Shown: positions 4,880-62,489 of the stretch, piece by piece
How positions within the stretch are numbered: position 1 is the first letter of the stretch
Layout: every line of letters begins with the position of its first letter
Source: an uncultured Candidatus Saccharibacteria bacterium
Lineage (GTDB): Bacteria; Patescibacteriota; UBA1384; DTJR01
Assembly: GCA_964487045.1 (NCBI GenBank)
Contig: CAZAOT010000001.1
Location: 151,863 to 215,862, forward strand
Direction of reading: 5' to 3'
Length of the DNA stretch: 64,000 nt
The notes under the pieces: model-generated
Database searches by the model: none
What the model saw: the letters and a program-made list of their open reading frames with translations, nothing else
What the model was told of the DNA's origin: nothing
Position numbers and translations under genes: made by a program

Positions 4880-4950
4880 GTCAATGTCCTCCCATTTTGG
4901 GTGGTTTCTAATGCAAGATTGCATAAGGGGAAATAATATCATTTTTGTAA
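4880..4950 (-). promoter_or_regulatory. Conserved leader copy A, including the palindrome ATGCAAGATTGCAT (4911-4924)
   Basis: About 70 nt aligns with 6104-6175 (copy B): ...CCATTTTGG..TTCTAATGCAAGATTGCATAAGGGGAAATAATATCATTTT.. It contains a 6-2-6 inverted repeat ATGCAA-GA-TTGCAT. Confidence 0.45.
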
Positions 4951-5026
4951 AAAAAAAGAAAGCCACCCAGAGTGCTTGGGGCACGGAGGGTGGCTTGAAA
5001 TCAGTCGCGCAAGTGGACTTGGCCAG

Positions 5027-16005: not shown

Positions 16006-16164
16006 GCCATACGATTGACTTGGCAAGTACTTTGTGCTACGCTAGAATGCACTTAAGCACATTTATATGTGTGATCATGGTTTCAAGCTAAAGAGCTGGG
16101 AGGGCTCAGTTAGCTGAAGCTAGGCAGTGTACGAACAGCTTGTCCACCATTGGAGGGTGATTTG

Positions 16165-16404
16165 ATGTCAGATGCTTTCGCGATCGATGGAGTCGGTCCT
16201 GAGCTGGAGTTGAAGCTTGATCCTGACGAGGTATCGAGGGCATATCGCCTCGCGATCCGCCACGTCAAGAAGCAGGAGAGCAGGATCGCACGCCACGCGA
16301 AGAGATCGGCAGTGAAGAGTCGCAAGCTGCCACCCCGTACTCGGGGAGGCGAGGGAGTATTCCGGACGGCGCACGCTGTCCGGGCTGCAAGTCCGAGGCG
16401 GTAG
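16165..16404 (+). CDS. hypothetical small basic protein (GC-rich island)
   Basis: ATG 7 nt after GGAGGG. ~60% GC. Arg/Lys-rich C-terminus. Followed by a hairpin. Confidence 0.35.
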   Translation: MSDAFAIDGVGPELELKLDPDEVSRAYRLAIRHVKKQESRIARHAKRSAVKSRKLPPRTRGGEGVFRTAHAVRAASPRR

Positions 16405-16420
16405 AACCGCCTCTACATGA

Positions 16421-16452
16421 GAATCTGGCCGGTGGGGAGCTCACGCTCCGCA
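16421..16452 (+). terminator. hairpin terminator
   Basis: GGCCGGTG-n16-CACCGGCC followed by TTTTCT. Confidence 0.4.
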
Positions 16453-16545
16453 CCGGCCTTTTCTAAAGATCATTTATTAAAATTAAAGTAAAAGAAAGCC
16501 GCCTCAAAGAGGCGGCTTGGGGTGTCATTTAGTTCGTGCCGATTG

Positions 16546-17421
16546 CTACTCGAGCCAATCGCGCATCCGAGCCATCGTTTGATCGATGGCGTTGTTGGTG
16601 GGGATCTTGCCCTGTGGGTCGGGATACCCGAGGTACTGGCAAGTTTCCTCGTGCGACCAGCTGCATATTAGCTGTCGAAGCGCGACGTACAGTGCGCAAA
16701 AACGTCCCATCTGACTGATCCGCCAGACATGGTAGAATCCGATCGCATTTTCGGAACAATGAACGTACTCGGCCTCATTGTCAAAGCGTTCGTCTGGGTG
16801 AAACTGGCTCTCGCAGTAGTTCTGGGCGAGAGTTGTCAGTAAGCCATCTGCGATGACTTGCTTGCGACAATCGGGGCAGGAAGCGAGTGCTTGGTAGGCA
16901 CGTTCGCCTTGTCCCCGCCTAATCTGGCTCTGACATAAGATCCACAGCCAGTGCCAGCAGTCGCCACCTAACCATTCGGGTTCTTCGATGTCAACTCCTC
17001 CTGGGTATGGGTGGTCAAGGTTATAGTATCCAAATGAAAGATGGGGGCGGTCACAGAGATGCTGCGCTTCTTCTACAGTGAATTCAGCCGGGCCGTTGAA
17101 AGCGAAATGTACGTCATTCAGGTCGCCGATGAGATCGGCGAAAAGCTCCATGACAGGAGAAGCCAGAATTAGCCGCTCGGTCAGGCCACGCAAGCGCGCA
17201 CTGGCGCGAGCCATGGGCCAGAAAAAGCCAAGTCGTCTTGTCGCCGAGATAGTCGGCTTGTGGTGGCCGAGCCCCTGGTCACCGGTCTTAGCCCGAACGA
17301 ACGCTTCTCGGAATGCTTCCACTGGCGCCCCATTCATTGCTAAGTCATGGATGACATACCAGGCGAAGTGGATCGGAGTTGTAAACCCGTTTTCTAGATT
17401 CTCGCTTTGCACGTGCATCAC
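16546..17421 (-). CDS. hypothetical protein (GC-rich island)
   Basis: 291-aa ORF in ~57% GC DNA. No recognisable domain. The hairpin AAGCCGCCTC-aaa-GAGGCGGCTT lies just past its 3' end. Confidence 0.5.
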   Translation of the reverse strand: MMHVQSENLENGFTTPIHFAWYVIHDLAMNGAPVEAFREAFVRAKTGDQGLGHHKPTISATRRLGFFWPMARASARLRGLTERLILASPVMELFADLIGDLNDVHFAFNGPAEFTVEEAQHLCDRPHLSFGYYNLDHPYPGGVDIEEPEWLGGDCWHWLWILCQSQIRRGQGERAYQALASCPDCRKQVIADGLLTTLAQNYCESQFHPDERFDNEAEYVHCSENAIGFYHVWRISQMGRFCALYVALRQLICSWSHEETCQYLGYPDPQGKIPTNNAIDQTMARMRDWLE

Positions 17422-17558
17422 CTCAAGACATATTTGTGAGGATACTACGTTATGAAAATCTATACCACAATTCGGCTACTAAATCAATCGAGAAAGTTTC
17501 TACTGGCTTCTTGAGAAATTACTCCTGATCTGATAAACTTTTGTTCGTAATCGCAAAT

Positions 17559-17793
<235 letters not shown>

Positions 17794-17893
17794 AATAGCC
17801 ACTAAAGGCTATTTTTGTTATATTTAGGCGAGATAAAAAGGAGACAATATAGATCTTAATAATATTAAATTAAATCCACCCCTTGAGTTTATT

Positions 17894-18487
17894 GTGGATC
17901 CAGATAATAACAACAGAAGATTAGGAATTTGTATAAAAGAAATTTCTGCGGATGGAAAGAGGGATCGCTTGCATCAATTCGATATAGGTAGCGGAAGTTA
18001 TCTCGGCTATCGTGATCGCGAGCTGAATCCTGGAACTGGACTTATGCTTTCTTCTCGAGGGATGAGTTATTCATACAAGGGAACTCTTGCCAATGGAGAC
18101 AAACGTTTTTATAAACGGGAGCTTGGTCCTATTTATCAAGTCGGAAAAAAGAAGGTAGTTTCGGGAAAGTTTTTGCCTGCAATTAAACTTGAAGGTGATA
18201 CGGTGGATTTAGTTAGAATTGAAATGTTACCATCGTTGGTGAAAGAGGAAACATCTAGAGAGCGATTGGAAGCACGAGCTGAATCAGAGGGGCGAACGTT
18301 AGCTGAAGTTTATGGTGATCGGGACGGGAGTCTAAAGGACGACCCAAGCGAGCCAATTTCTCAAGATCAGAAGAAGCAAGAGCCTCTGCCTGAGGCTGAA
18401 TTTGATGCTGAGGGTAAGGCTAAATTTGATTTCGAAGAGGAACCGAAAAACCCCGATCCAGAAACTCCAGGTATGGGAACCTATTGA
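17894..18487 (+). CDS. hypothetical protein with an acidic C-terminus (GTG start)
   Basis: 197-aa ORF. Nothing recognisable. Confidence 0.35.
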   Translation: MDPDNNNRRLGICIKEISADGKRDRLHQFDIGSGSYLGYRDRELNPGTGLMLSSRGMSYSYKGTLANGDKRFYKRELGPIYQVGKKKVVSGKFLPAIKLEGDTVDLVRIEMLPSLVKEETSRERLEARAESEGRTLAEVYGDRDGSLKDDPSEPISQDQKKQEPLPEAEFDAEGKAKFDFEEEPKNPDPETPGMGTY

Positions 18488-28299: not shown

Positions 28300-28357
28300 T
28301 ATTCCTCGGTACCTGCCCGCCAGAGCCTACGGCTCAGCCGTTGGCAGGCGGGGCTCA
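28300..28357 (+). repeat. tRNA-derived fragment: 12-nt copy of the intron-tRNA 5' end (TATTCCTCGGTA) fused to CCTGCCCG from its 3' region, plus a GC hairpin
   Basis: 28300-28311 is identical to 28636-28647. 28312-28319 is identical to tRNA positions 28893-28900. The fragment abuts the ATG of the GIY-YIG gene directly. Confidence 0.45.
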
Positions 28358-28627
28358 ATGATTTATGATGAAATTGTGAGTAAATTTTGGTTCACTTATG
28401 TTTTGAGAAGCAGGGCCGACAACAAACTTTACTTCGGTTTTACAGAAAATTTGAAAGTTCGCATACGGTTACACAACACAGGCAACGTCCCTGCAACAAA
28501 GAATAGATTGCCTCTTGAATTGATATATTTTGAAGCTTGTCTGAATAAAGATCAAGCGATTAAAAGAGAAAAGTATTTTAAAACTGGGTTCGGGAGAAAT
28601 TTTCTTAATAACAGGATTCAGAGTTGA
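28358..28627 (+). CDS. GIY-YIG nuclease family protein (small YhbQ/UPF0213-like)
   Basis: FWFTYVLRSRADNKLYFGFTENLKVRIRLHN carries the GIY...YIG spacing and a conserved Arg/His. 89 aa. Confidence 0.8.
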   Translation: MIYDEIVSKFWFTYVLRSRADNKLYFGFTENLKVRIRLHNTGNVPATKNRLPLELIYFEACLNKDQAIKREKYFKTGFGRNFLNNRIQS

Positions 28628-28638
28628 CAAATTAGTAT

Positions 28639-28908
28639 TCCTCGGTAGCTCAATGGCAGAGCGGGTGCCTGTGAACCTTAAACGCAGCTTTCCGTCAAAA
28701 GGCGGATTGAAACTTCTTGGGATAACGGTGAAGGCTAAGTCGAAAGATATGCTAATACCGTGGGAACTCCAATTTGGAGAGCGCCGTAGAGACTAGATAC
28801 CAAGATGCCTAAATCGAAAGATATGGCAAAGATATAGTCCACGCCACTAGAAATAGTGGATTAAGTGTAAGCACTAGGTTGCAGGTTCGAGTCCTGCCCG
28901 AGGAGCCA
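28639..28908 (+). tRNA. tRNA gene split in the anticodon loop by a ~195-nt group I intron; isotype unresolved (anticodon region reads CT..TGTAA/GTTAA, so Thr or Asn are candidates)
   Basis: Acceptor TCCTCGG pairs with CCGAGGA, followed by G and CCA. D-arm GCTC-AATGGCA-GAGC. T-arm GCAGG-TTCGAGT-CCTGC. Anticodon stem halves GGTGC (28665-69) and GCACT (28871-75) are separated by the intron. Confidence 0.75.
28674..28868 (+). ncRNA. group I intron (approximate boundaries) inside the tRNA anticodon loop
   Basis: It contains the S element AAGATATAGTCC (exact consensus) and the R/P7 element AGAGACTAGATAC, which gives the P7 pair GACTA/TAGTC. There is P4-like pairing AAAGGCGG / GAGCGCCG. No ORF inside. 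Confidence 0.65.
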
Positions 28909-29160
28909 TGAAAATACTCAAGCAAATTGCTTGAGTTTTTTCATAACTTGGGAAAAGGACTCGATACCTGAGTGCGCAATGCGACGTTCATATAAAAAAC
29001 TATTGTCGCATAGGTTTCCTGCCCGAGGAGCCAAAAGAAAACAGATCACGTAAGTGGTCTTTTTTCTTTTGATTTTTGGGAAAAGGACTCGAACCAGATG
29101 CGAAGTCCTGCTTGCCACTCCGTAGCTTAATAGCGAAGGGTGGCCCGAGGAGCCATGAAA
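28909..29160 (+). repeat. two further tandem copies of the tRNA 3' end (CCTGCCCGAGGAGCCA at 29018 and 29143), each preceded by an inverted T-arm copy and hairpins
   Basis: The unit is TGGGAAAAGGACTCGA(T/A)..., where GGACTCGAACC is the reverse complement of the T-arm GGTTCGAGTCC. GAGCCATGAAAATA is repeated after two copies. Hairpin terminators at 28917-28945. Confidence 0.55.
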
Positions 29161-29241: not shown

Positions 29242-31485
29242 ATGGTAGATAACCTCGAGAGCAAAGAGTTCGTTATTAAGTTGCCCCAGCATACTAATTT
29301 TGAGATTAGAGTTTTTGCAGAATTTCTCAAAACTCTTTCTAAAATTTTCAAAAATATTCCTTTTGCAGTATCGCTTAACATGATTAATAAAAGGATATTT
29401 TTTACAGTTAAGGTTCCAGCCAGATATCAATCGGTTATGGAGAACCAGCTTTACGCGGTTTTTCCCAAGATCGAACTCGAAGAGATATCAAGAACTTTTG
29501 ATCCTCAGAACGCTGAAGTTGCGGCTCAGGCTGATCTACGACTGCGATATGGCGACCATTATCCTTTTCAGACGTTTGAGAGCTTGGAGGGGTCGTTTCT
29601 ATCTGACATCTACAACCAGTTTAACAGGCTTACTGCTCAGGAAAAATTCTTTATGCAGCTTAAGATCAAGCCTCTAGATCAAGACAAGGCAATTTTTACG
29701 CTGAAACGTTCAGTTGACTTAAATGTTAAAAACTTCAGGCAGAGGCTAAATGTCGTCGAAGGAATATTTTCCAAAAAGGCTTCTCCAGAGATTCGGGCGA
29801 GGGGAATGTCGGCTGCACAGGAGAAAAATCGCCAGCCACTTTATTTGACCGAGATTGATATCTTATTGTTTTCAGAAAGTTATGAACTAGCTGCAGCAAA
29901 GTTGGAGCCTATTGCTCAAGTTTTCCAGAAACTAGAGAGTGAGTACAACGAATTTAAATACAAAATTAGGACTGTTTCAGTTGCCGATTTTGATCGAATT
30001 ACCTCACTGGAAATTCCAGCAACTGCTTTTCATATGAGCTCAGACGAAGTATCTACGATTTATCATTTTCCACCAGACTCTGACTCGGTTCCAAACCTTT
30101 ATAAAATTCTTTCCCCTAAAGCTGAGCCACCGCTTGGACTTCCGACTGTGGATAACACATCGGCTGATGAGCTTTGTCCCTTTGCTCAAACCAACTATCG
30201 TAACATCAAGGAAAGTTTTGGTATCAAGCGCCGGGATCGACAAAGACATATGTATATCATTGGTAAGTCTGGAGTTGGTAAGTCTAAACTTCAAGAATTA
30301 ATTATCAAAAATGATATCGAAAAAGGTCATGGTATTTGCGTAATTGACCCTCACGGAGACCTGATCGAAAACATTATTCCATTTATTCCGGAAAACAGAA
30401 TTAAAGACGTAATTTTCTTTAATCCAGTTGACGAAGCTTTTCCAATTTCTTTCAACCCGATTGAAAAAGTAAACCCACTTCTTCGTCAGCAGGTTGCCAC
30501 TGGGCTTATAGAAATTTTTAAGAAAGTCTTCGGAGCGAACTGGACACCAAGGCTTGAGCACGTTCTTCGTATGACCCTGCTTGCCCTTCTCGATGCCCCA
30601 AAGGCTTCGATTATGAGCGTTCTTCTTCTTCTAACCGATAGAGAATATAGGCAGGAAGTTATTAAAAGTATTGAGGACCAAGTGGTTAAGAACTTCTGGA
30701 CAAATGAATTTGCTGGTTGGAGCGAGAAGTTCGACTCGGAAGCAATCATGCCTATCCTAAACAAAATCGGTCAATTTGTTTCAAACACTATTATTCGTAA
30801 CATTGTCGGTCAGGAAGATAATAAGATTGTAATGCCTGACATTATGGATAATCGCAAAATTTTACTTGTTAAGCTGCCAAAAGGTATTCTGGGCGAAGAG
30901 AACACTTCACTGCTTGGATCTATGATTATTACTAAGATTTATCAGGCGGCCTTGGCCAGAGCTGATGTGCCTGAGAATCAGCGTGTACCTTTCTACCTAT
31001 ATGTGGACGAGTTCCAAAATTTCGCAACTGATTCTTTTGCCAACATCCTCTCTGAAGCCCGAAAATATAAATTATCGCTTACTATGGCGCATCAATATGT
31101 CTCGCAGCTAAACGATGTAGTTAAGAAAACGGTTTTTGGTAATGTCGGATCGATTTTGTCGTTTAGAATTGGTCCGGAAGATGCACTTTTGATGGAGAAA
31201 GAATTTGAGCCGAACTTTACTGCTCAAGATATTGTAAACCTTGGTGTCCGTGAAATTTATTTGAAACTTTCCATCGACGATGAAGTAAAAGAATCATTCT
31301 CGGCAAAAACCTTGGCAGTTCCAGAGCCTACTTTCAATTTCAGGGAACAAATAGTACAATTCTCGCGTGAAAACTATTGTCGAAATAAGGAAGTAGCGGA
31401 GAAAGAATTGAAGCAAGAGAAATCAAAAGAAATGGAAGTTCTCGAAAAGCTCAAGGAAGAAAATTTCTCTGCACCGATTTTGTAA
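29242..31485 (+). CDS. soluble P-loop ATPase of the TrwB/TraD/VirD4 (type IV coupling protein, AAA10/TraG-D_C-like) superfamily; no TM segments
   Basis: MYIIGKSGVGKSKLQELI...GHGICVIDPHGDLIEN...DVIFFNPVD parallels the T4CP Walker A / 'VIDPxGD' / 'NPxD' block. Later YLYVDEFQNF is a Walker B-like motif, then LTMAHQ. The N-terminal ~330 aa is of unknown fold. Confidence 0.5.
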   Translation: MVDNLESKEFVIKLPQHTNFEIRVFAEFLKTLSKIFKNIPFAVSLNMINKRIFFTVKVPARYQSVMENQLYAVFPKIELEEISRTFDPQNAEVAAQADLRLRYGDHYPFQTFESLEGSFLSDIYNQFNRLTAQEKFFMQLKIKPLDQDKAIFTLKRSVDLNVKNFRQRLNVVEGIFSKKASPEIRARGMSAAQEKNRQPLYLTEIDILLFSESYELAAAKLEPIAQVFQKLESEYNEFKYKIRTVSVADFDRITSLEIPATAFHMSSDEVSTIYHFPPDSDSVPNLYKILSPKAEPPLGLPTVDNTSADELCPFAQTNYRNIKESFGIKRRDRQRHMYIIGKSGVGKSKLQELIIKNDIEKGHGICVIDPHGDLIENIIPFIPENRIKDVIFFNPVDEAFPISFNPIEKVNPLLRQQVATGLIEIFKKVFGANWTPRLEHVLRMTLLALLDAPKASIMSVLLLLTDREYRQEVIKSIEDQVVKNFWTNEFAGWSEKFDSEAIMPILNKIGQFVSNTIIRNIVGQEDNKIVMPDIMDNRKILLVKLPKGILGEENTSLLGSMIITKIYQAALARADVPENQRVPFYLYVDEFQNFATDSFANILSEARKYKLSLTMAHQYVSQLNDVVKKTVFGNVGSILSFRIGPEDALLMEKEFEPNFTAQDIVNLGVREIYLKLSIDDEVKESFSAKTLAVPEPTFNFREQIVQFSRENYCRNKEVAEKELKQEKSKEMEVLEKLKEENFSAPIL

Positions 31486-31502: not shown

Positions 31503-33224
31503 ATGGCACAAGATATAACTTGCAAACAATGTCAGGCTAGATTTGAAGCTACCGACGATGATATCGCGTTTTTGGATAAAATTTCCCCCGTGCTTGATGG
31601 AAAAAAGTATCTGATTTCTACGCCAAAACTTTGTCATGAGTGTAGGCAAATTCGCCGCTATTCATGGAGAAATGAAAGACACCTTTATAAAAGAACTTGT
31701 GATCTTACCGGCGAGCCTATTATTTCGATCTTCTCACCGGATAAGCCATTCAAGGTTTATTCAAACAAAGCTTTTCAGTCAGATGGATGGGATCCACTCG
31801 AATATGGTCGCGAATTTGATTTTAATAGGCCATTTTTTGAGCAATTTAGAGAGCTTCTGGAAGCTGTTCCACGCCAAGCCAATAGCTCAATTTTTAATGA
31901 GAATTGTGATTATTGTAATCAGGCATGGCACTCAAAAGATTCGTACATGTCCTTCAATCTAGGATATGGAGAAAGATGTTTTTACTCAAATGAATCTTTC
32001 TATGTGAAAGATTGTGTCGATACCTTTGATATCAGGCATTGTGAATTTTCTTACTCACTATACGATTGTGATAATTGCAATTCGTGTTCATTTCTTGAAA
32101 ACTGCAAAGATTGCTCAGAGAGTCATTTTTCTTATGACTCGGCTGGTTGTCAAAACATAATTCTGTCGAATGGTCTAAAAAATAAGCAATATTACATTCG
32201 AAACGAAAGTTTTTCCAAGGAAGATTACTTTGAGAAGCTGAAAGAATTAAAAATGTACACCCACTCTGGTCAAGCCGAACTTAAAAAAGAATATGAAGAG
32301 TTAAAGAAAAATGCGATTCACCGGGCAAATCATAATTTGAAGAGTGAAAATTGTACCGGTGACTACATAATCGAATCAAAAAATTGCAGGCAGTGTTTTA
32401 ATATCTTTAAGAGCGAAAACTGTGTGAGAATAGGAAATATCGATGATGCTGGTAGAGACTCAAGAGATATGAATTACACTGCCGAGATGGAACTATGCTA
32501 TGAAGGAGCTTCAATCGCTGGTTACAAAAATATCTTCGGTGTGTTTATGGCATATGGAGAAAATAATTATTACTGCAACTTCTGCGAATACTGCAAAAAT
32601 TGTTTCGGATGTGTCGGTTTGAGGCGAAAAGAGTACTGCATTTTTAATAAGCAATATACCAAAGAAGAATACGAGCAATTATTCGCTAAAATAATTGAAA
32701 AAATGCAAGAAACGGGTGAGTGGGGCGAATTTTTTCCTATCTCAATATCCCAAGTAGCTTACAACGAATCAGTCGCTCAAGATTATGCTCCAAAAACCAA
32801 AGAGGAGGTAGAAGCTATAGGCGGTTATTGGCAAGACAACTTCTACGAGAGTGAATTTACTGGGGAAACTTACGAGCCCAAGGACGATATACATGAATAC
32901 ACAAACAATGAGGAAGAGACCAAGAAGCTACTTGCTGGGGTAATTAAATGTGAGAAGTCTGGCAAACCATTTAAAATTTTGCCACAAGAATTTTTATTTT
33001 ATATCAAGAACAACATTCCAATTCCAACGGTTCATTATAGTGAAAGATTCAAGGAATTATTCAGACTGAGAAACCCACGAAAACTTTTCGAGCGACAATG
33101 CGATTGCGATCGTAATGGACATGGTCATGAAAGCCGCTGTCCGAACAAATTCGAAACGACCTATTCTCCAGATAGGGAGGAACAGGTATACTGTGAGCAG
33201 TGTTACCAAGCGAGCATTTTATAA
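31503..33224 (+). CDS. Cys-rich protein, paralog A (573 aa; N- and C-terminal zinc-ribbon-like modules, two internal C-x2-C repeat halves)
   Basis: 17 nt after the ATPase stop. About 40 Cys. N-terminal CKQC..(27)..CHEC. The motif YCNFCEYCKNCFGCVGLRRKEYCIFNKQYTKEEY. C-terminal C..C/H..C..C cluster. Confidence 0.7.
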   Translation: MAQDITCKQCQARFEATDDDIAFLDKISPVLDGKKYLISTPKLCHECRQIRRYSWRNERHLYKRTCDLTGEPIISIFSPDKPFKVYSNKAFQSDGWDPLEYGREFDFNRPFFEQFRELLEAVPRQANSSIFNENCDYCNQAWHSKDSYMSFNLGYGERCFYSNESFYVKDCVDTFDIRHCEFSYSLYDCDNCNSCSFLENCKDCSESHFSYDSAGCQNIILSNGLKNKQYYIRNESFSKEDYFEKLKELKMYTHSGQAELKKEYEELKKNAIHRANHNLKSENCTGDYIIESKNCRQCFNIFKSENCVRIGNIDDAGRDSRDMNYTAEMELCYEGASIAGYKNIFGVFMAYGENNYYCNFCEYCKNCFGCVGLRRKEYCIFNKQYTKEEYEQLFAKIIEKMQETGEWGEFFPISISQVAYNESVAQDYAPKTKEEVEAIGGYWQDNFYESEFTGETYEPKDDIHEYTNNEEETKKLLAGVIKCEKSGKPFKILPQEFLFYIKNNIPIPTVHYSERFKELFRLRNPRKLFERQCDCDRNGHGHESRCPNKFETTYSPDREEQVYCEQCYQASIL

Positions 33225-33241
33225 TATAGCTAGGAGTTGAG

Positions 33242-34960
33242 GTGGAAAACAAAACGTGTAAGCAATGCAGCGCTGATTTCGTGGTAGTGGATGAGGATCT
33301 TGAATTCTACAAAAAAATGTCCCCGACATTTAATGGAAAAGTCTATGATTTACCGGCTCCCGATTTTTGTCCTGATTGCCGAGATAGTCGAAGGTTGTCA
33401 TTTAGAAACGAGAGATCGCTTTATAACCGCAAATGTGACAAGACAGGAAAGCAAATAGTATCTATCTATTCTCCTGATAAAACCGATTATAAAGTTTTTG
33501 AAATTGCCGAGTGGTATAAGGATGACTGGGACGCCATGGAGTACGGTCGCGACTTTGACTTTAATAAACCATTTTTTGAACAATTCGATCAGTTGATGAA
33601 AGATGTCCCTAGACTTTCTTTATTCAATACAAATACCGAAAATTGCGAATATGCGAATTTTGTTGAGGGTGTTAAGAATTGCTATATGACAATGGTGACA
33701 TACTATGGCACAGAAAATTCACATTTTTGCTACAGAACCTACCGCTCAAAAGATAATTTAGACATCAATTTTGCCGAAGAACTGCAGAAGTGTTATGAGT
33801 GTGTGTTTACTACAAAGTCGTATAATTGCCGATACGGAATTAGATTAAATAATTGCCGGGATTGTGCTTTTTCAGTTGATCTAACAGGATGCAATGACTG
33901 CTTCATGTGTTCCAATCTAAGCAGGAAACAATACTGCATTAGGAATAATCAACTGACAAGAGAAGAGTATGATCGACAAATGGCCGAATACGATCTAGGA
34001 TCATTTGAAACTGTTGAAAAATTAAAAAATGAATTTGAACAATTGAGAATTGATTCGCCGGTTAAGTTTGCAAACCTGACAAACTGTGAAGACTGTATCG
34101 GTGACGATATGCATGACTGTAAAAATGTGAAGTATGGCTTTAATACTTTCGAGTCTGAGAACTGCAAATATATTATGGGCGAGAAGGCAAAGAATGTGAT
34201 GGATAGCCGAGGAGGAGGGTATGAATGGTGCTATGAATGCAACCATACTGGACTAGGGGCAAATCATATTATGTTCGCAAGCGGAGTAATCGGCGGCTAC
34301 AACATGACCTATTGCGAGACCTGCCATGGTTGCCATGATTGCTTTGGCTGTGTGGGACTTAGAAAGAAAGAATACTGCATTTTTAACAAGCAATATACTA
34401 AAGAGGAATACGAAAAAAAGGTTGCTGAAATTATTGAAAAAATGCAAGCAGATGGCGAGTGGGGACAGTTTTTCCCAAATGGTACCAGCCCCTTCGGCTA
34501 CAACGAAACAATCGGAAACAGACTTTTACCGCTAACTCGCGAAGAAGCCATTAAGCGTGGTTTTAAGTGGCAAGAAAAAGAATTTGATATTGAATTCAGT
34601 GGGGAATTTTATACTCCAGCGGATAATATAGCCGATTATGCTGATGAATCAAAACAAAAAGAACTTCTTACTGCCGTGTTAAAATGTTCAGATTCAGGCA
34701 AGCCATACAGGATAATGCCGCAAGAACTAGCTTTTTATCTAGACAATAAAATTCCTGTTCCGAGAAAGCATTTTGAAACGAGATATGGCGATCGTCTAAA
34801 ATTAGAGTTTGTTCGAAAAATTCATGATAGGCAGTGTATGTGCGAGGAGCCGGGGCATGGTCATGAGGGCAGATGTCAGGAAAAATTTGGAACAACTTAT
34901 GGACCTGATAGACCGGATAAGGTGTACTGCGAGAAGTGTTATCAAAGTATTGTTAAATAA
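33242..34960 (+). CDS. Cys-rich protein, paralog B (572 aa)
   Basis: Collinear with A and C: CKQC..CPDC, RNERSLYNRKCDKTG, YCETCHGCHDCFGCVGLRKKEYCIFNKQYTKEEY, C-terminal HGHEGRC..YCEKCYQ. Confidence 0.7.
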   Translation: MENKTCKQCSADFVVVDEDLEFYKKMSPTFNGKVYDLPAPDFCPDCRDSRRLSFRNERSLYNRKCDKTGKQIVSIYSPDKTDYKVFEIAEWYKDDWDAMEYGRDFDFNKPFFEQFDQLMKDVPRLSLFNTNTENCEYANFVEGVKNCYMTMVTYYGTENSHFCYRTYRSKDNLDINFAEELQKCYECVFTTKSYNCRYGIRLNNCRDCAFSVDLTGCNDCFMCSNLSRKQYCIRNNQLTREEYDRQMAEYDLGSFETVEKLKNEFEQLRIDSPVKFANLTNCEDCIGDDMHDCKNVKYGFNTFESENCKYIMGEKAKNVMDSRGGGYEWCYECNHTGLGANHIMFASGVIGGYNMTYCETCHGCHDCFGCVGLRKKEYCIFNKQYTKEEYEKKVAEIIEKMQADGEWGQFFPNGTSPFGYNETIGNRLLPLTREEAIKRGFKWQEKEFDIEFSGEFYTPADNIADYADESKQKELLTAVLKCSDSGKPYRIMPQELAFYLDNKIPVPRKHFETRYGDRLKLEFVRKIHDRQCMCEEPGHGHEGRCQEKFGTTYGPDRPDKVYCEKCYQSIVK

Positions 34961-34972
34961 GGGAGTTGAAAA

Positions 34973-36673
34973 ATGTCAGAGCAGAAACATTGTAAAGTAT
35001 GTGCTAAACAATTTACAGTTGAAGATGAGGACCTAGAGTTCTACAAAAAAATGTCACCGACTTTCGCGGGCGAGACCTTTGAATGGCCAGCGCCGACTCA
35101 TTGTCCCGATTGTCGAGCGGCAAGACGCCAAGTCTGGAGGAACGAAAGACATTTATATAAAAGAAAATCCGATAAATCAGGCCGAGATATCGTATCAATT
35201 TACCCACCAGAAAGAGCTGATTACAAAGTATTTGCTATCGATGAGTGGTGGGCGGATGACTGGGATGGCACGCAATATGGAATCGACTGGGATCCAAGCA
35301 AACCCTTTTTCGAGCAATTTGAGCAGCTTCTAAAGACCGTTCCTCGCCAAGCACTCTATAACACGAAGACTGAGGCTTGTGAATTCTCAAATTACATTGC
35401 CGAATGCAAGAACTGTTATATGACGACAGTCACTTTCTATAAAACAGAGAATACACATTATTCATATTTCGCCTATCAGTCAAAAGACAATGTGGACATA
35501 AGCTTCTGTAATGAATCAGAACTGGGTTATGAGCTTGTCGATGGAAATAAATGTTTTAACTGCCGATATTCCAATCGTCTAGAGAACTGTCGAAATTGCT
35601 ACTTCTCCCAAGACCTAATTGGCTGTAGCGACTGTATCTTATGTGACAATTTGCGAAACAAGCAATACTGCATTGAGAACGAGCAGTTAACTCAAGAAGA
35701 ATATCAGAAGAGATTAAGCAAAATGAACTTCGGTTCTAAGAAATTTGTTGATGAATGCCTCGCAAAGTACGAAGCGATGCGCTCAAACAGCATTGTAAAA
35801 TTTGTAAACACAGTAAAATGCGAGAACTGCCAAGGCGACAACCTGAGAGAGTGCAAGAATGTTAAGAAAAGCTTTTCTTCGCTTAGAGTTGAAAACTCGC
35901 GTTACTGCCTTGATCAGGAAGACGGCAAGAATATCTGGGATTCGGAGGGGGGCACTTATGAGTGGGCTATTGAAGTTAACCATACTGGGTTTGGACAGAC
36001 TTTCGTAGTCAACTCGAGCGTATTTTACTGTAACTTCATGTATTACTGTGAGAGCTGTTATAGCTGTCGGGACTGCTTTGGTTGTGTGGGGCTAAGGAAT
36101 AAGCAATATCATATATTTAACAAAGAGTATTCCAAAGAGGAATATGAAAAAAAGGTTGCTGAGATAATTGCCAAAATGCAAGAAACAGGTGAGTGGGGAG
36201 AGTATTTTCCATTTTCACTTTCGCCCTTTGGCTATAACGAAACCTTGGCTTATGATCATTTCCCGAAAACCAAAGAGGAAGTATTGGCGATGGGGTGTAA
36301 ATGGCAAGAGGATGATCATTCGCTTCAATATAGTGGTCCGTTTTATGAACCAGATGATGACATAAAGGTTTATCAATCAGATGAGAATAAAGCCAATGAA
36401 CTTTTGCAGGGAATCCTGAAGTGTGAAAAAAGCGGTAAGCCGTTTAAGATTATGCCTCAAGAACTGGCATTCTATCTGAAAAGCGGAATTCCAATTCCTC
36501 GCAAGCATTATGATGTCCGGTTCTATGAGAGGTTTAATGTCAGAAACCCCAAGCACTTTTATCATAGAAAATGTATGAACGAGGGATGCGGCAATGAGTT
36601 TGAAACAACTTATGCACCGGAAAGAAGCGAAAAGGTCTATTGCGAGGAGTGTTATCAGAAGAATGTTGGCTAG
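34973..36673 (+). CDS. Cys-rich protein, paralog C (566 aa)
   Basis: Collinear with A and B: CKVC..CPDC, RNERHLYKRKSDKSG, YCESCYSCRDCFGCVGLRNKQYHIFNKEYSKEEY. Confidence 0.7.
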   Translation: MSEQKHCKVCAKQFTVEDEDLEFYKKMSPTFAGETFEWPAPTHCPDCRAARRQVWRNERHLYKRKSDKSGRDIVSIYPPERADYKVFAIDEWWADDWDGTQYGIDWDPSKPFFEQFEQLLKTVPRQALYNTKTEACEFSNYIAECKNCYMTTVTFYKTENTHYSYFAYQSKDNVDISFCNESELGYELVDGNKCFNCRYSNRLENCRNCYFSQDLIGCSDCILCDNLRNKQYCIENEQLTQEEYQKRLSKMNFGSKKFVDECLAKYEAMRSNSIVKFVNTVKCENCQGDNLRECKNVKKSFSSLRVENSRYCLDQEDGKNIWDSEGGTYEWAIEVNHTGFGQTFVVNSSVFYCNFMYYCESCYSCRDCFGCVGLRNKQYHIFNKEYSKEEYEKKVAEIIAKMQETGEWGEYFPFSLSPFGYNETLAYDHFPKTKEEVLAMGCKWQEDDHSLQYSGPFYEPDDDIKVYQSDENKANELLQGILKCEKSGKPFKIMPQELAFYLKSGIPIPRKHYDVRFYERFNVRNPKHFYHRKCMNEGCGNEFETTYAPERSEKVYCEECYQKNVG

Positions 36674-36692
36674 AAAGTTCTAAAGGCTGAAA

Positions 36693-36728
36693 AACAAACG
36701 GCTCATGAGTGAGCCGTTTGTTTTTTTT
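36693..36728 (+). terminator. strong rho-independent terminator closing the ATPase/Cys-rich operon
   Basis: AAACAAACGGCTCA-tgag-TGAGCCGTTTGTTTTTTTT. Confidence 0.7.
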
Positions 36729-36808
36729 AACTTAAACTATTTATATTTAGGCAGATTTCTGCTATTCTTTTGTGATCTTTGAAATCCAGGGAAGGGACTG
36801 AGGTAACT

Positions 36809-37270
36809 ATGCCCAAGAGGAAGCAACCGAACTTTCGCAAGGCGCTTCAGCTGATGCTTAGCTACATCTTTGAGCACCAGTTGGTGGTCAATGATGTGGT
36901 GTTTATGCTCTCGACCGATGTAATGCTCAAGAATCCTCTGATCGTGCAGACGCTTGAAGAAGCAGGGTGCATTGAGCGTCTTGGTAGGCTGTCTCTCACA
37001 ACCCAGGCCAAGTTCAACAGAGCTTACCCTGGCTGCATGAGAGCAGTTCACGACAAGGCGCTCCAGAAGTTCCCGAAGATGAAGTGCCCATGGGGACATT
37101 GGATTTGGGTCGTTAATACGACCCGTTATGACCAGATGAATCCACATCTTCTGCTGTCTCGTCCGCTCCTTGAGCAAGTCGAAAGGCTCTATGGTAAGGA
37201 CACGCAGGTTAGAGCTGTTGACGAAGAAGATCGTCCGACGGACGAGAAGCCATGGCGGGCTGAGCCGTAG
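36809..37270 (+). CDS. hypothetical protein (GC-rich island)
   Basis: 153-aa ORF, ~55% GC. The RBS-like GGGAAGGGACTGAGG precedes its ATG. The antisense ORF 36737..37177 is judged spurious. Confidence 0.4.
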   Translation: MPKRKQPNFRKALQLMLSYIFEHQLVVNDVVFMLSTDVMLKNPLIVQTLEEAGCIERLGRLSLTTQAKFNRAYPGCMRAVHDKALQKFPKMKCPWGHWIWVVNTTRYDQMNPHLLLSRPLLEQVERLYGKDTQVRAVDEEDRPTDEKPWRAEP

Positions 37271-38436: not shown

Positions 38437-38757
38437 AAGAGTGACTAGTTTTCCACAGGCAAGCGTGACCAACCCGAACAAACTTACATAACTTAACTTC
38501 GATATAGAGTAAGTTATATAACATTTTGATAATCTATATAACATATTTGACAAGTCGCACGCTTGATGGTTCTATGGATTTACATTAAATAAGTGTGAGA
38601 TGGGTAAGCGCGGTTAAATACCGTCACAGTCCCGCTACCGTAAAGTCGGAAAACCACTCATACATTCATCCCGAGGAGGAATTATGCAGCATACTTAGGT
38701 GTTTTTTAACTAGCTCAAAAGAGCTTTTTTTAGTCTCTTAAAAATATAAGGAGTAAA

Positions 38758-39111
38758 ATGAAGAAAATTAGAATTATACTTATCGCGTTATCTATCTTGG
38801 TCTTTCCAGTATTTCTAGCAGGCTGTCAGAATACAGCTAATCCTACGCTGCAAACGAGTGTTGCGCCTAGCACAGAAGTAACTTATTCTGGCGTAGAGGG
38901 TAAAACGGTTTACGAATTGCTTAAGGATTCACATCAAGTCGAGGCTGATGAGTCTTCTATGGGAGTTTTGGTCAAATCAATTGATGGCGTAAGCCAAACT
39001 GACAAGGAGTTTTGGCTATACGATATCAACGGTCAGCAGTCTAATCTTGGAGCGGACAAGCAGGCGACGAAAGATGGCGATGTTGTTCACTGGCAATTAA
39101 AAGGCTTCTAA
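38758..39111 (+). CDS. lipoprotein (signal peptide + lipobox LAGC), unknown function
   Basis: MKKIRIILIALSILVFPVFLAGCQN. Confidence 0.55.
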   Translation: MKKIRIILIALSILVFPVFLAGCQNTANPTLQTSVAPSTEVTYSGVEGKTVYELLKDSHQVEADESSMGVLVKSIDGVSQTDKEFWLYDINGQQSNLGADKQATKDGDVVHWQLKGF

Positions 39112-39767: not shown

Positions 39768-41135
39768 ATGGGGAAAGATTTTTTTGAAGATATTGTTGAG
39801 GCACCTGCTAAAGTTTTAGATAGATCAATTACTTCTTCGTCTGATTTTAAAGACAAAGTGATGGAGCAAAGGCCAATTAAGAGTGCCAAGAAGTATTGGG
39901 ATTTACTCGGCCCTGGGCTGATCACGGGGGCATCTGACGATGATCCCTCTGGAATCGCGACTTATTCTCAAACTGGCGCAAGATATGGTTTTTCTCTTCT
40001 TTGGTTGTCTATTTTTACATTTCCCTTAATGGCTATTGTTCAGGAAATGTGTGCCAGGATTGGTCTTGTGACAGGTCGGGGACTTGCTGCAAACGTAAGA
40101 AAGTATTTTCCAAAATATGTAATTTATATAGCTGCTTTATTGTTATTTGGAGCAAATACTTTCAACTTAGGAGCGGACCTTGGAATGATGGCCAGGGCTG
40201 TGCAGCTTCTATATCCCGGAATAAATTTTGTTTATTTAATTATTGGATTTACTCTACTTACCTTGTTTCTTCAAATTTTTGCGCCATACGAAAAATACGC
40301 AAAATATTTAAAATGGATGGCCTTGGTTCTACTTTCTTATATTTTCTCAGTTTTGATCATGAAGGGCGTGGACTGGGGTGAAATATTCAGTCATGCCATC
40401 CGTCCAACGATTGATTTCTCCAAGGACCAATTCATACTGATCTGCGCAATCCTCGGAACTACGATTTCACCTTATTTATTCTTCTGGCAAACTTCGCAGG
40501 AAGTTGAAGAATTAACCGAAAAGAAGGTTTCTGTCAGAAATGCTTCTGCGCCCATTACAAGAGGCCTTCTAAAGGATATGAGAGTTGATGTTTGGTCTGG
40601 CATGTTTTTATCAAACTTAGTGATGTTTTTCATAATTGTTGCTTGCGCGATCACCTTAAATAAATCAGGTTTGACTAATGTTCAGACTGCTGAAGATGCC
40701 GCTAGAGCCCTACGGCCACTTGCAGGCGATATGTCATACCTTCTTTTTGCAGTTGGCATCATTGGAACAGGCTTACTAGCTGTCCCGGTACTTTCAGGTT
40801 CAGCGGCTTATGCGATTTCTGAAAGCCTGAGCTGGAAAGAAGGACTACACAAGAAATTAAGCCACGCCTATTCATTTTATGGAGTAATGATTATCTCAAT
40901 GCTTATTGGGCTTGGATTAAACTTTGTTGGTCTTGATTCTATCAAGGCCTTAATTTATTCGGCCGTTCTTAATGGTTGCGTCGCTCCGGTCGTTTTAATT
41001 CTAATAGTGCTTCTCAGTTCCAACAAGAAAATTATGGGGGAGTATTCTAACTCTATTGTCATTAGAATAATCGGTTGGATCACAATAGCAATAATGCTAA
41101 TTGCCGCTGGAGCAACGATTTACTCTATTATTTAG
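39768..41135 (+). CDS. mntH: NRAMP-family divalent metal (Mn2+/Fe2+) transporter
   Basis: GPGLITGASDDDPSGIATYSQTGARYGFSLLW and MPH-like motifs. About 11 TM helices. Confidence 0.85.
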   Translation: MGKDFFEDIVEAPAKVLDRSITSSSDFKDKVMEQRPIKSAKKYWDLLGPGLITGASDDDPSGIATYSQTGARYGFSLLWLSIFTFPLMAIVQEMCARIGLVTGRGLAANVRKYFPKYVIYIAALLLFGANTFNLGADLGMMARAVQLLYPGINFVYLIIGFTLLTLFLQIFAPYEKYAKYLKWMALVLLSYIFSVLIMKGVDWGEIFSHAIRPTIDFSKDQFILICAILGTTISPYLFFWQTSQEVEELTEKKVSVRNASAPITRGLLKDMRVDVWSGMFLSNLVMFFIIVACAITLNKSGLTNVQTAEDAARALRPLAGDMSYLLFAVGIIGTGLLAVPVLSGSAAYAISESLSWKEGLHKKLSHAYSFYGVMIISMLIGLGLNFVGLDSIKALIYSAVLNGCVAPVVLILIVLLSSNKKIMGEYSNSIVIRIIGWITIAIMLIAAGATIYSII

Positions 41136-47217: not shown

Positions 47218-47292
47218 CGGCCTGTAGCTCATTGGTAGAGCGACGCTCTTATAAGGCGTATGTAGATGGTTCGATCCCATCCAGGCCGACCA
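47218..47292 (+). tRNA. tRNA-Ile (anticodon UAU as encoded), CCA encoded
   Basis: CGGCCTG / CAGGCCG acceptor, anticodon stem ACGCT/GGCGT (one G.U), loop CTTATAA, T-arm GATGG-TTCGATC-CCATC. Confidence 0.75.

Positions 47293-62412: not shown

Positions 62413-62489
<77 letters not shown>

What the first reader, a model, noticed from the sequence alone, without database searches (positions are those of the whole stretch)
31503..36673. Cys-rich paralogs: zinc-ribbon-like ends, an internal duplication and an invariant C-x2-C-x2-C-x2-C-x2-C-V-G-L-R motif
Each paralog starts with C-K-Q/V-C..(25-27)..C-P/H-D/E-C followed by RNER.LY.R.(C/S)DK(T/S)G..I.SIY(S/P)P..(-/A)D(F/Y)KV(F/Y). Each ends with KC(E/S)(K/D)SGKP(F/Y)(K/R)I(L/M)PQE(F/L)(L/A)FY(I/L)..(N/G)IP(I/V)P..H plus a final C/H cluster and YCE.CYQ. 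The middle has two homologous halves, each ending ...YCI.N.QLT.EEY and ...CFGCVGLR.K.YCIFNKQYTKEEYE. The second half contains five Cys at exact 3-residue spacing (CETCHGCHDCFGC, CNFCEYCKNCFGC, CESCYSCRDCFGC). Regular C-x2-C arrays like this indicate multiple metal (Zn or Fe-S) sites or a disulfide-knotted repeat fold. The three copies have diverged substantially by eye, so the triplication is old and maintained.
Basis: seen in the sequence. Interest (0 to 1): 0.7.

Follow-up and report, generated by a model that had tools for sequence, protein, structure and literature searches.

The report
Cys-ladder solenoid proteins beside an ATPase
Three neighbouring genes encode old copies of an uncharacterised protein family, seen here almost only in the tiny "candidate phyla radiation" bacteria, whose striking Cys-x-x-Cys runs most likely form the core of a narrow beta-coil rather than metal clusters, and which is repeatedly encoded next to a ring-ATPase of the DNA/protein-translocase type whose role in these bacteria is still open.

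Summary
Three tandem + strand genes (31503-33224, 33242-34960, 34973-36673) encode 566-573 aa paralogs that are 42-54% identical. All the described motifs, the internal duplication (hhalign E 5e-33) and the five-Cys array are present.

The family is large: at least 4,426 clusters at 50% identity. It is uncharacterised, has no Pfam or NCBIfam match above cutoff, and has no solved relative by sequence or fold. The 77 best species-representative loci are nearly all labelled Patescibacteria lineages.

The AlphaFold2 model (pLDDT 89) shows a terminal Zn treble-clef module, two narrow beta-solenoids with roughly 12-residue coils, a helical region, and a second terminal Zn module homologous to the first.

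Across 216 members the eight Zn-site Cys are 92-99% conserved. Two further sites are all-or-none (phi up to 1.0). The Cys of the C-x2-C arrays are only 25-80% conserved, swap with Ser/Leu/Val and vary independently of each other. They therefore behave as inward-facing ladder residues, not metal ligands.

The genes form an operon with a soluble HerA/VirD4-type ATPase, and this linkage holds in both directions across lineages. In some lineages a divergent TrmB regulator is also present.

The most likely role is as diversified protein partners (adaptors or cargo) of that ATPase. This role is inferred, not shown.

The parts
29242..31485 (+). Soluble HerA/VirD4-type P-loop ATPase (747 aa). It has an N-terminal alpha/beta domain of about 300 aa (recorded as PF26449 DUF8128 on homologues), Walker A GKSGVGKS at residue 341 and Walker B YLYVDE at 585. 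It is the first gene of the operon.
31503..33224 (+). Paralog 1 (573 aa). It belongs to the lineage that sits directly next to the ATPase gene in related genomes.
   Evidence: A GGAG Shine-Dalgarno lies about 10 nt upstream. Orthologues at the same position in L006, L090, L098, L100 and L105 are 63-81% identical.
33242..34960 (+). Paralog 2 (572 aa, GTG start). This is the protein that was modelled.
   Evidence: An AGGAG Shine-Dalgarno is present. The AF2 model has pLDDT 89.1 and pTM 0.88.
34973..36673 (+). Paralog 3 (566 aa), 54% identical to paralog 2.
   Evidence: A GGGAG Shine-Dalgarno is present.
33242..33541 (+). Paralog 2, N-terminal Zn module (aa 1-100). It holds a treble-clef site (C6, C9, C43, C46) followed by an Arg-rich helix (CRxxRRxxxRNER) and a degenerate second ribbon (C65 only).
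   Evidence: Conservation is 92-97%. zf_Tbcl matches at 0.0039 here and in 22 of 80 members, best 1e-5. In 31% of members C68/C87/C90 are all present together, phi 1.0.
33626..33955 (+). Paralog 2, beta-solenoid 1 (aa 129-238). It has about 8 coils of roughly 12 residues, with a Cys/Ser/aliphatic residue at every third position.
34058..34396 (+). Paralog 2, beta-solenoid 2 (aa 273-385), the internal duplicate of solenoid 1.
   Evidence: hhalign E 5.4e-33. phrog_15341 matches this domain in 58 of 80 members, best 2.3e-11.
34313..34363 (+). The five-Cys array C358-x2-C361-x2-C364-x2-C367-x2-C370-VGLR of paralog 2, which forms the last coils and cap of solenoid 2.
   Evidence: It is invariant in the three window copies. 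Family-wide the positions are Cys in 56/79/38/50/99%.
34676..34957 (+). Paralog 2, C-terminal Zn module (aa 479-572). It has a degenerate first ribbon (C482, H510) and an intact site (C532, C545, C563, C566), and it is basic (pI 8.6-9.0).
   Evidence: It is homologous to the N-terminal module. Conservation is 96-99%. pI values are. zf_Tbcl_2, LIM and TIGR04272 give sub-threshold hits.
36692..36728 (+). Intrinsic terminator closing the operon: a perfect 14-bp stem AAACAAACGGCTCA/TGAGCCGTTTGTTT, a loop TGAG and a run of T.
   Evidence: Read directly from the sequence. The automatic scan did not list it.

Best explanation
SHOWN. The three genes encode ancient paralogs of a large, uncharacterised family of soluble proteins of about 65 kDa; the 77 best species-representative loci are nearly all labelled Patescibacteria. 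Each protein has five parts in order: a terminal Zn module (treble-clef finger plus Arg-rich helix), two narrow beta-solenoids with roughly 12-residue coils, a conserved helical region, and a second terminal Zn module homologous to the first. The conspicuous C-x2-C-x2-C runs mark every third residue of the solenoid coils. These Cys are individually replaceable by Ser or small aliphatic residues. They are therefore best read as inward-pointing core (ladder) residues rather than metal ligands; the inward orientation itself could not be checked because model coordinates are not returned. Only the terminal modules behave as metal sites: two intact sites in these copies and four in about a third of the family. 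The genes are co-oriented and spaced 12-17 nt apart behind a soluble HerA/VirD4-type hexameric ATPase gene. All three have Shine-Dalgarno sequences and a single terminator follows the last. This gene pair recurs across distant lineages.

INFERRED. The proteins are non-catalytic partners of that ATPase. I commit to the following reading. They are interchangeable adaptor or specificity subunits, or clients. They dock on the ATPase ring through their conserved parts: the Zn modules, residues 370-430 and the basic C-terminal module. They present different solenoid surfaces from the most variable segments (about 160-200, 305-360 and 445-470). A genome can then couple one motor to several targets, either nucleic acid or protein. 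Whether the final act is export to a host cell or an intracellular transaction is not resolved.
For: Family size and taxonomy: 5,575 hits and 4,426 clusters at 50% identity, all about 560 aa. The genome scan found at least 584 relatives, and the 77 distinct best loci carry CPR labels apart from a few records labelled only 'bacterium' and one labelled candidate division WS2.

Duplications: hhalign E 5e-33 for the two halves and 1.5e-15 for the two end modules.

Cys behaviour: the conservation table, period-3 autocorrelation, and independence of ladder Cys versus all-or-none Zn sites.

Soluble protein: no TM segment or signal peptide, maximum KD19 0.79, pI 5.3-5.5, C-terminal module pI 8.6-9.0.

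Operon: gene spacing, Shine-Dalgarno sequences and the terminator.

Linkage: 270 copies in 80 loci, with up to 9 copies per locus. The ATPase is present in 32 loci. Of 35 fully contained arrays, 13 have the ATPase within 1.5 kb, 12 of them on the same strand. Reciprocally, 17 of 28 ATPase-homologue loci with both flanks present carry a family gene within 1.5 kb.

Literature: 5,713 VirD4-like homologues were found in Patescibacteria, and only 148 lie near virB4; their role is left open (PMC12102498).

Variable versus conserved segments.
Against: No physical interaction was tested; the link to the ATPase is genomic only. About two thirds of arrays have no ATPase gene beside them. More distant ATPase homologues often lack the family as a neighbour.

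Several non-Cys residues are invariant in 80 members (Q114, Y148, N235, N382, W443, E495, R514), so an unrecognised catalytic or ligand site is not excluded.

Four near-invariant Cys outside the end modules (C217, C220, C370, C379; 91-99%) could form one further metal site. I could not inspect this because model coordinates are not returned.
Confidence: 0.4

Rival explanations
1. Exported cargo. The paralogs are effector-like substrates recruited by a type IV coupling protein and delivered through the patescibacterial T4SS into or onto host bacteria. The arrays reflect host-range diversification, in the way the tandem VirB2 pilin arrays of these bacteria may do.
For: The neighbouring ATPase hits T4CP families in Pfam and NCBIfam, and TrwB, Cag-beta and DotL are among its top fold matches. 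The C-terminal module is basic (pI 8.6-9.0) on an otherwise acidic protein, which loosely resembles positively charged T4SS signals. Tandem divergent VirB2 arrays are described in Patescibacteria, and the T4SS substrates there are unknown (PMC12102498; PMC12857230). A Cys-rich solenoid like the insect antifreeze protein TmAFP would be well suited to an oxidising exterior.
Against: The ATPase lacks the N-terminal membrane anchor typical of coupling proteins. It matches HerA and DptH as well as it matches TrwB. No VirB4 or VirB6 genes were seen among the window ORFs scanned. Only 148 of 5,713 such homologues lie near virB4, and the one in S. epibionticum is dispensable while the T4SS is essential. 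The C-terminus is a folded Zn finger, not a disordered tail. Ladder Cys at spacing 6 show no pairing signal (phi -0.13).
Confidence: 0.2
2. The C-x2-C arrays bind several metal ions or Fe-S clusters, or form an obligate disulfide knot, making the protein a metal store, a redox protein or an electron carrier.
For: The proteins contain 33-35 Cys (6%). Within this genome all five array Cys are conserved. Four Cys outside the Zn modules are 91-99% conserved family-wide. An Nramp transporter gene lies 3 kb downstream.
Against: Array positions are Cys in only 25-80% of 216 members. They are replaced by Ser, and also by Leu/Ile/Val/Thr, which cannot ligate metal. There is no co-variation of Cys presence at spacings 3, 6, 9 or 12, whereas genuine Zn sites in the same proteins give phi 0.6-1.0. 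There is no ferredoxin, radical-SAM or metallothionein profile hit. Neighbours other than the ATPase and TrmB are not conserved.
Confidence: 0.08
3. Nucleic-acid-handling or defence module. The Zn fingers with Arg-rich helices bind DNA or RNA and hand it to the HerA/FtsK-like translocase. The paralogs act as sensors of different invaders, as in HerA-based anti-phage systems.
For: HerA, DptH (Dnd restriction), HerA-DUF, TdpA and HerA-Sir2 are among the best fold matches of the ATPase. The ATPase gives a PADLOC mad8 hit at 2.5e-12. Conserved Arg-rich helices sit directly after the Zn sites. A phage family, phrog_15341, shares the solenoid domain.
Against: No PADLOC hit for the paralogs and no nuclease, NADase or other effector domain. 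The cluster sits among housekeeping genes with ordinary GC content. The family is broadly conserved and multi-copy across lineages, not patchy. The whole protein is acidic.
Confidence: 0.15
4. Self-assembling structural element. The homologous N- and C-terminal modules pair head to tail so that the paralogs co-polymerise into rigid rods (cytoskeletal or envelope-associated). The ATPase would act in assembly.
For: The end modules are homologous. The body is a rigid double solenoid with pTM 0.88. Curli CsgA and adhesin solenoids appear among the fold matches. Many paralogs are co-expressed.
Confidence: 0.07

Closest known systems
Tenebrio molitor antifreeze protein (TmAFP, PDB 1ezg; Pfam insect AFP repeat)
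   Different: There is no significant sequence similarity, and the rmsd is 8.4 A. TmAFP is secreted, carries a TxT ice-binding face and has strictly conserved i/i+6 disulfides (my own knowledge). Here there is no signal peptide, and Cys at spacing 6 are uncorrelated (phi -0.13) and often replaced. Here two solenoids are embedded between Zn modules.
Pfam zf_Tbcl (PF13451) and zf_Tbcl_2 (PF23477) 'probable treble clef' domains; TIGR04272 CxxC-x17-CxxC
   Same: The N-terminal module has CxxC...F...FY...P..CxxCR with the second Cys pair at a helix start. 22 of 80 members match zf_Tbcl (best 1e-5) and 7 of 80 match zf_Tbcl_2.
   Different: The window copies score below the curated cutoffs (17.6 and 16.3 bits against 24; 19.6 against 27). 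Those Pfam entries describe an isolated small domain of unknown function, not this 570-aa architecture.
HerA-partner assemblies (HerA-NurA, HerA-Sir2 'Nezha', HerA-DUF4297) and DptH/TdpAB
   Different: Partners in those systems are single-copy enzymes (my own knowledge of those systems). Here the partners are 2-9 tandem paralogs without any recognisable catalytic domain. There is no PADLOC match for them.
Type IV coupling proteins (TrwB/VirD4/DotL) with their substrates and adaptors
   Different: There is no membrane anchor. No T4SS genes were found among the window ORFs scanned. NCBIfam scores are far below cutoffs. No known T4CP substrate or adaptor resembles the Cys-rich family.
phrog_15341 (phage protein family, function unknown)
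   Same: It shares the solenoid domain: 58 of 80 members match, best E 2.3e-11.
   Different: The profile is 276 positions, which suggests a single solenoid and no Zn end modules. No member could be located in GenBank phage records or in IMG/VR beyond one fragment.

Membership tests
zf_Tbcl / zf_Tbcl_2 treble-clef Zn fingers (PF13451, PF23477) | Score at or above Pfam's gathering cutoff (24 and 27 bits) | tested here: not met
   The window paralogs score 17.6 and 16.3 bits (zf_Tbcl) and 19.6 bits (zf_Tbcl_2). Family-wide, 22 of 80 and 7 of 80 members reach E<=0.01.
zf_Tbcl / zf_Tbcl_2 treble-clef Zn fingers (PF13451, PF23477) | Four conserved Zn ligands, with the second pair at the N-terminus of a helix | tested here: met
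   C6/C9/C43/C46 are 92-97% conserved and C532/C545/C563/C566 are 96-99% conserved. Helices start at residues 44 and 564 in the model.
TmAFP-type 12-residue Cys beta-solenoid (insect antifreeze repeat) | 12-residue coils with small residues at every third position | tested here: met
TmAFP-type 12-residue Cys beta-solenoid (insect antifreeze repeat) | Conserved intra-coil disulfide pairs (Cys i / i+6) | tested here: not met
   Mean phi of Cys co-occurrence at spacing 6 is -0.13. Ladder Cys are 25-80% conserved.
TmAFP-type 12-residue Cys beta-solenoid (insect antifreeze repeat) | Significant sequence similarity; secreted protein | tested here: not met
   The profile against PDB gives E 2.7. There is no Pfam hit. 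There is no signal peptide or hydrophobic segment.
Fe-S / poly-metal Cys-cluster proteins (ferredoxin-like, metallothionein-like) | Invariant ligand Cys that are kept or lost as sets | tested here: not met
   Array Cys are replaced by Ser/Leu/Ile/Val/Thr. There is no co-variation, while the real Zn sites give phi 0.6-1.0. There is no profile hit.
Fe-S / poly-metal Cys-cluster proteins (ferredoxin-like, metallothionein-like) | Measured metal content or spectra | not testable with these tools
   This needs purified protein (ICP-MS, UV-visible, EPR).
T4SS substrate or adaptor of a type IV coupling protein | Encoded with, and dependent on, a T4CP that works with a VirB4-type channel | tested here: inconclusive
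   Adjacency to a T4CP-like ATPase holds. However, the ATPase has no membrane anchor, matches HerA equally well, and no VirB4 or VirB6 gene was found among the window ORFs scanned.
T4SS substrate or adaptor of a type IV coupling protein | Demonstrated translocation, or binding to the T4CP | not testable with these tools
   This requires experiments or multimer modelling.
HerA-partner defence or repair systems | HerA-superfamily ATPase in the same operon | tested here: met
HerA-partner defence or repair systems | Partner carries a nuclease, NADase or other effector domain and is recognised by defence-system models | tested here: not met
   There are no Pfam, NCBIfam or PADLOC hits for the paralogs.

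The most novel reading that the evidence does not exclude
The tandem Cys-ladder solenoid proteins are the missing working partners of the thousands of 'orphan' VirD4-like ATPases of Patescibacteria. Together they would form a CPR-specific, ATP-driven recognition or delivery system. In it, anciently diversified solenoid surfaces select different targets (host-cell molecules, nucleic acids or cargo). That would give a handle on how these epibionts interact with their hosts.
Probability: 0.17. Interest if true: 0.8.

Novelty: new variant of a known kind. Interest (0 to 1): 0.6.

Why it matters
Patescibacteria make up a large share of bacterial diversity, have genomes of about 1 Mb, and yet some carry arrays of up to 9 copies of this 1.7-kb gene within about 20 kb. 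No name, no Pfam family and no solved structure covers it.

A 2025 survey counted 5,713 VirD4-like ATPases in these bacteria. Almost none lie near a secretion system, and their function was left open (PMC12102498). The two-way gene linkage found here offers concrete candidate partners for those ATPases, and so a testable entry point.

Structurally, the family appears to be a cytoplasmically made relative of the disulfide-laddered insect antifreeze solenoid. It also provides a clean internal example of how to tell ligand Cys (kept or lost as sets) from core Cys (lost one at a time).

Tried and rejected
1. Known family. Pfam, NCBIfam, PADLOC and PHROGs scans of the three paralogs gave nothing above cutoff, apart from the uncharacterised phrog_15341.

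3. AFDB fold search. The library was not available.

4. Phage origin. tblastn of paralog 2 and of a solenoid domain against 50,697 phage records found no match. IMG/VR yielded one fragment at a contig end.

5. Phage G lead. gp156 is a 26%-identical homologue of the ATPase. Its neighbours, including the VirB4-like gp155, show no similarity to the Cys family, so this was a dead end.

6. More copies in the window. There are none; the other ORFs of about 570 aa are DnaG, a Na+/H+ exchanger and a PilB-type ATPase.

7. Literature. Searches for the family, for DUF8128 and for zf_Tbcl found nothing relevant. The cysteine-rich proteins reported in Peribacteria are large (average 1,655 aa), and most are predicted to carry signal peptides, so they do not look like this 560-aa family without a signal peptide.

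8. Inspecting Cys-Cys distances in the model was not possible, because coordinates are not returned.


Full report
OBSERVATION

All are on the + strand and are separated by 17 and 12 nt. They align end to end at 42-54% identity.

Two details need correction. The two N-terminal Cys pairs are 33 residues apart, not 25-27. "Invariant" holds only within this genome.

No further copy lies in the window. The other ORFs of similar length are DnaG, a Na+/H+ exchanger and a PilB-type ATPase.

A LARGE, UNNAMED FAMILY

A search of 5.8 billion proteins returned at least 5,575 relatives. All are about 560-600 aa and carry names such as "hypothetical protein". An exhaustive HMMER scan of 1.84 billion cluster representatives found 4,426 clusters at E<=1e-3 and 1,959 at E<=1e-30.

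In one-genome-per-species contigs, at least 584 stretches encode a relative. The 77 best distinct loci carry patescibacterial labels: Berkelbacteria, Peri-/Peregrinibacteria, Gracilibacteria, Nomurabacteria, Paceibacterota, Abawacabacteria and Minisyncoccia. The exceptions are a few records labelled only "bacterium" and one labelled candidate division WS2.

No Pfam, NCBIfam or PADLOC model reaches its cutoff. The only recurrent weak hits are the "probable treble clef" domains zf_Tbcl (22 of 80 members, best 1e-5) and zf_Tbcl_2 (7 of 80). There is also an uncharacterised phage family, phrog_15341, which shares the solenoid domain (58 of 80 members, best 2.3e-11).

ARCHITECTURE

With an 80-sequence alignment, AlphaFold2 gives a confident single-body model (pLDDT 89.1, pTM 0.88).

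It also adds a second duplication, since the N-terminal module (5-93) is homologous to the C-terminal module (481-569), E 1.5e-15.

The order of parts is therefore: Zn module, solenoid 1, short helix, solenoid 2, helical region, Zn module'.

In the model the first Cys pair lies in a knuckle between two strands, and the second pair lies at the start of a helix (residues 44 and 564). This is treble-clef geometry.

WHAT THE CYS ARE DOING

I aligned 216 distinct members taken from the fetched loci.

- The two end sites are near-invariant: C6/C9/C43/C46 at 92-97% and C532/C545/C563/C566 at 96-99%.
- Two more four-Cys sites exist in about a third of the family, at positions 65/68/87/90 and 482/485/510/513. 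The window copies keep only C65, and C482 plus H510. P0248 is an example with all four sites.
- These optional sites are kept or lost as sets. Phi for Cys co-occurrence is 1.0 among 68/87/90 and 0.61-0.87 among 485/510/513. That is the signature of real metal sites.
- The array positions behave in the opposite way. Cys frequency is 25-80%. The alternatives are Ser and also Leu, Ile, Val and Thr. Cys presence at one position says almost nothing about its neighbours: mean phi is 0.06 at spacing 3, -0.13 at spacing 6, 0.08 at spacing 9 and 0.14 at spacing 12.
- Shared ancestry would inflate these correlations, not hide them, so the lack of correlation is robust.
- The Cys frequency has a strict period of three over both solenoids: autocorrelation is 0.70 at lag 3 and 0.56 at lag 12 in solenoid 1.

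My reading is that these are the inward-facing ladder residues of a very narrow solenoid. Cys serves there as a small, apolar core residue, not as a chain of metal or Fe-S sites and not as obligate disulfide pairs of the TmAFP type.

One point is left open. C217, C220, C370 and C379 are 91-99% conserved and could form one extra site. I could not check this because model coordinates are not returned.

CONTEXT

Immediately upstream (29242-31485) lies a 747-aa P-loop ATPase, 17 nt from paralog 1.

- Pfam hits are T4SS-DNA_transf, TrwB_AAD_bind, DUF87 and TraG-D_C at 1e-5 to 1e-8. Homologues carry PF26449 (DUF8128) at the N-terminus.
- It has Walker A and Walker B motifs but no N-terminal hydrophobic anchor.
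- Each paralog has a Shine-Dalgarno sequence. A perfect 14-bp hairpin with a T-run follows paralog 3 at 36692-36728. This supports a four-gene operon.
- The surrounding window holds housekeeping genes (PNPase, RNase J, FtsK, RecA, DnaG, RpoD and type IV pilus genes) at ordinary GC content. No VirB4 or VirB6 gene was found among the ORFs scanned.

THE LINKAGE IS GENERAL

- In 80 loci I counted 270 family genes, with up to 9 copies in one 19.5-kb locus, almost always head to tail.
- The only other recurrent neighbours are the ATPase (32 loci) and a divergently transcribed TrmB-family regulator (26 loci, in Peri- and Gracilibacteria; Pfam TrmB 1e-12 to 1e-14).
- Of 35 arrays with at least 3 kb on both sides, 13 have the ATPase within 1.5 kb, 12 of them on the same strand.
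- Starting instead from the ATPase, 17 of 28 homologue loci with both flanks present carry a family gene within 1.5 kb. Among the evaluable relatives at 60% identity or more, all but one (L095) do.
- The gene beside the ATPase in related genomes is the orthologue of paralog 1 (63-81% identity, against 40-43% to paralogs 2 and 3). Paralog 2 has 64-79% orthologues elsewhere.

LITERATURE

A 2025 survey found 5,713 VirD4-like genes in 2,918 patescibacterial genomes. Only 148 lie near virB4. The homologue in S. epibionticum is not essential, although the T4SS is. The authors suggested exaptation to another function (PMC12102498). A 2025 review gives the same picture of these T4SSs (PMC12857230); in the passages I read it names no transported substrate. 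I found no paper that describes the Cys-rich family or its link to these ATPases. The Cys-rich proteins noted in Peribacteria are much larger (average 1,655 aa) and mostly predicted to be exported, so they appear to be a different set.

HOW IT MOST LIKELY WORKS

The following are shown: the fold class, the Zn modules, the ladder behaviour of the array Cys, the operon, and the two-way gene linkage.

The following is inferred. The proteins are non-catalytic partners of the ring ATPase. The conserved parts would serve docking: the Zn modules with their Arg-rich helices, residues 370-430 and the basic C-terminal module (pI 8.6-9.0). The most variable stretches (about 160-200, 250-275, 305-360 and 445-470) would give each paralog its own surface.

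I put about 0.4 on this partner/adaptor reading in general. Within or beside it, export as T4SS-type cargo is at about 0.2. A nucleic-acid or defence role is at about 0.15. A poly-metal protein is at about 0.08. A self-assembling structural rod is at about 0.07.

Weak points are these. About two thirds of arrays have no ATPase beside them. Known HerA partners are single-copy enzymes. Invariant non-Cys residues leave room for an unrecognised active site.

VERDICT

This is a real, well-defined feature. The repeat-fold and Zn-end parts of the interpretation hold. The "multiple metal sites in the arrays" part is not supported.

The family is uncharacterised, very abundant in Patescibacteria, and newly tied here to the unexplained VirD4-like ATPases of that group. 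I rate it a new variant of known kinds (a Zn-finger-capped Cys-ladder beta-solenoid, and a HerA/VirD4 partner protein), with interest 0.6.

Noticed in passing
window 28300-28940 (+): A probable tRNA gene split by a group I intron of about 190 nt in the anticodon loop. It was missed by ARAGORN and by Rfam at gathering score. Rfam Intron_gpI matches 28597-28860 at 47.3 bits (cutoff 50), E 1e-10. Read by eye, the tRNA 5' half lies at about 28637-28673 and the 3' half, with T-arm, acceptor and CCA, at about 28866-28909, followed by a hairpin terminator at 28916-28936. The anticodon is ambiguous (UGU, GUU or GUG).
   Followed up: partly
window 28358-28627 (+): An 89-aa GIY-YIG nuclease ORF (Pfam 5.4e-15) lies directly upstream of the intron-containing tRNA. 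It is bracketed by a 12-nt direct repeat, TATTCCTCGGTA, at 28300 and 28633. It may be a mobile homing-endonuclease insertion.
   Followed up: partly
window 38592-38664 (+) and 38758-39111 (+): An AdoCbl-II (cobalamin) riboswitch (40.7 bits, cutoff 36.5) lies upstream of a 117-aa DUF4430 protein with a lipoprotein-like N-terminus, followed by an Nramp transporter at 39768-41135. A DUF4430 gene also lies near the arrays in L006.
   Followed up: no
window 47218-47292 (+): ARAGORN calls a tRNA-Ile with anticodon UAU. Two tRNA(CAU) genes lie at 62413 and 63072.
   Followed up: no
window 4001-6000 and 16001-18000: GC rises to 0.55 and 0.51 against a background of about 0.40. The cause was not examined.
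   Followed up: no
loci L014-L084 (for example L018 5732-6493, L073 9044-9817): A TrmB-family regulator of about 253 aa is transcribed divergently from the head of many arrays in Peri-, Peregrini- and Gracilibacteria (26 of 80 loci). It is absent from the window.
   Followed up: partly
Bacillus phage G (L086 11812-14289) and PHROG phrog_5156: The ATPase, including its N-terminal domain, has full-length relatives in phages. phrog_5156 matches at E 7.7e-69 over residues 41-740. Phage G gp156 is 26% identical over 84% of the query and lies next to a VirB4-like gp155.
   Followed up: partly
window 36779-37270 (+): A 163-aa ORF (called as 153 aa in L001) downstream of the operon terminator has no match in Pfam, PADLOC or PHROGs. 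Local GC is higher, at 0.46.
   Followed up: no
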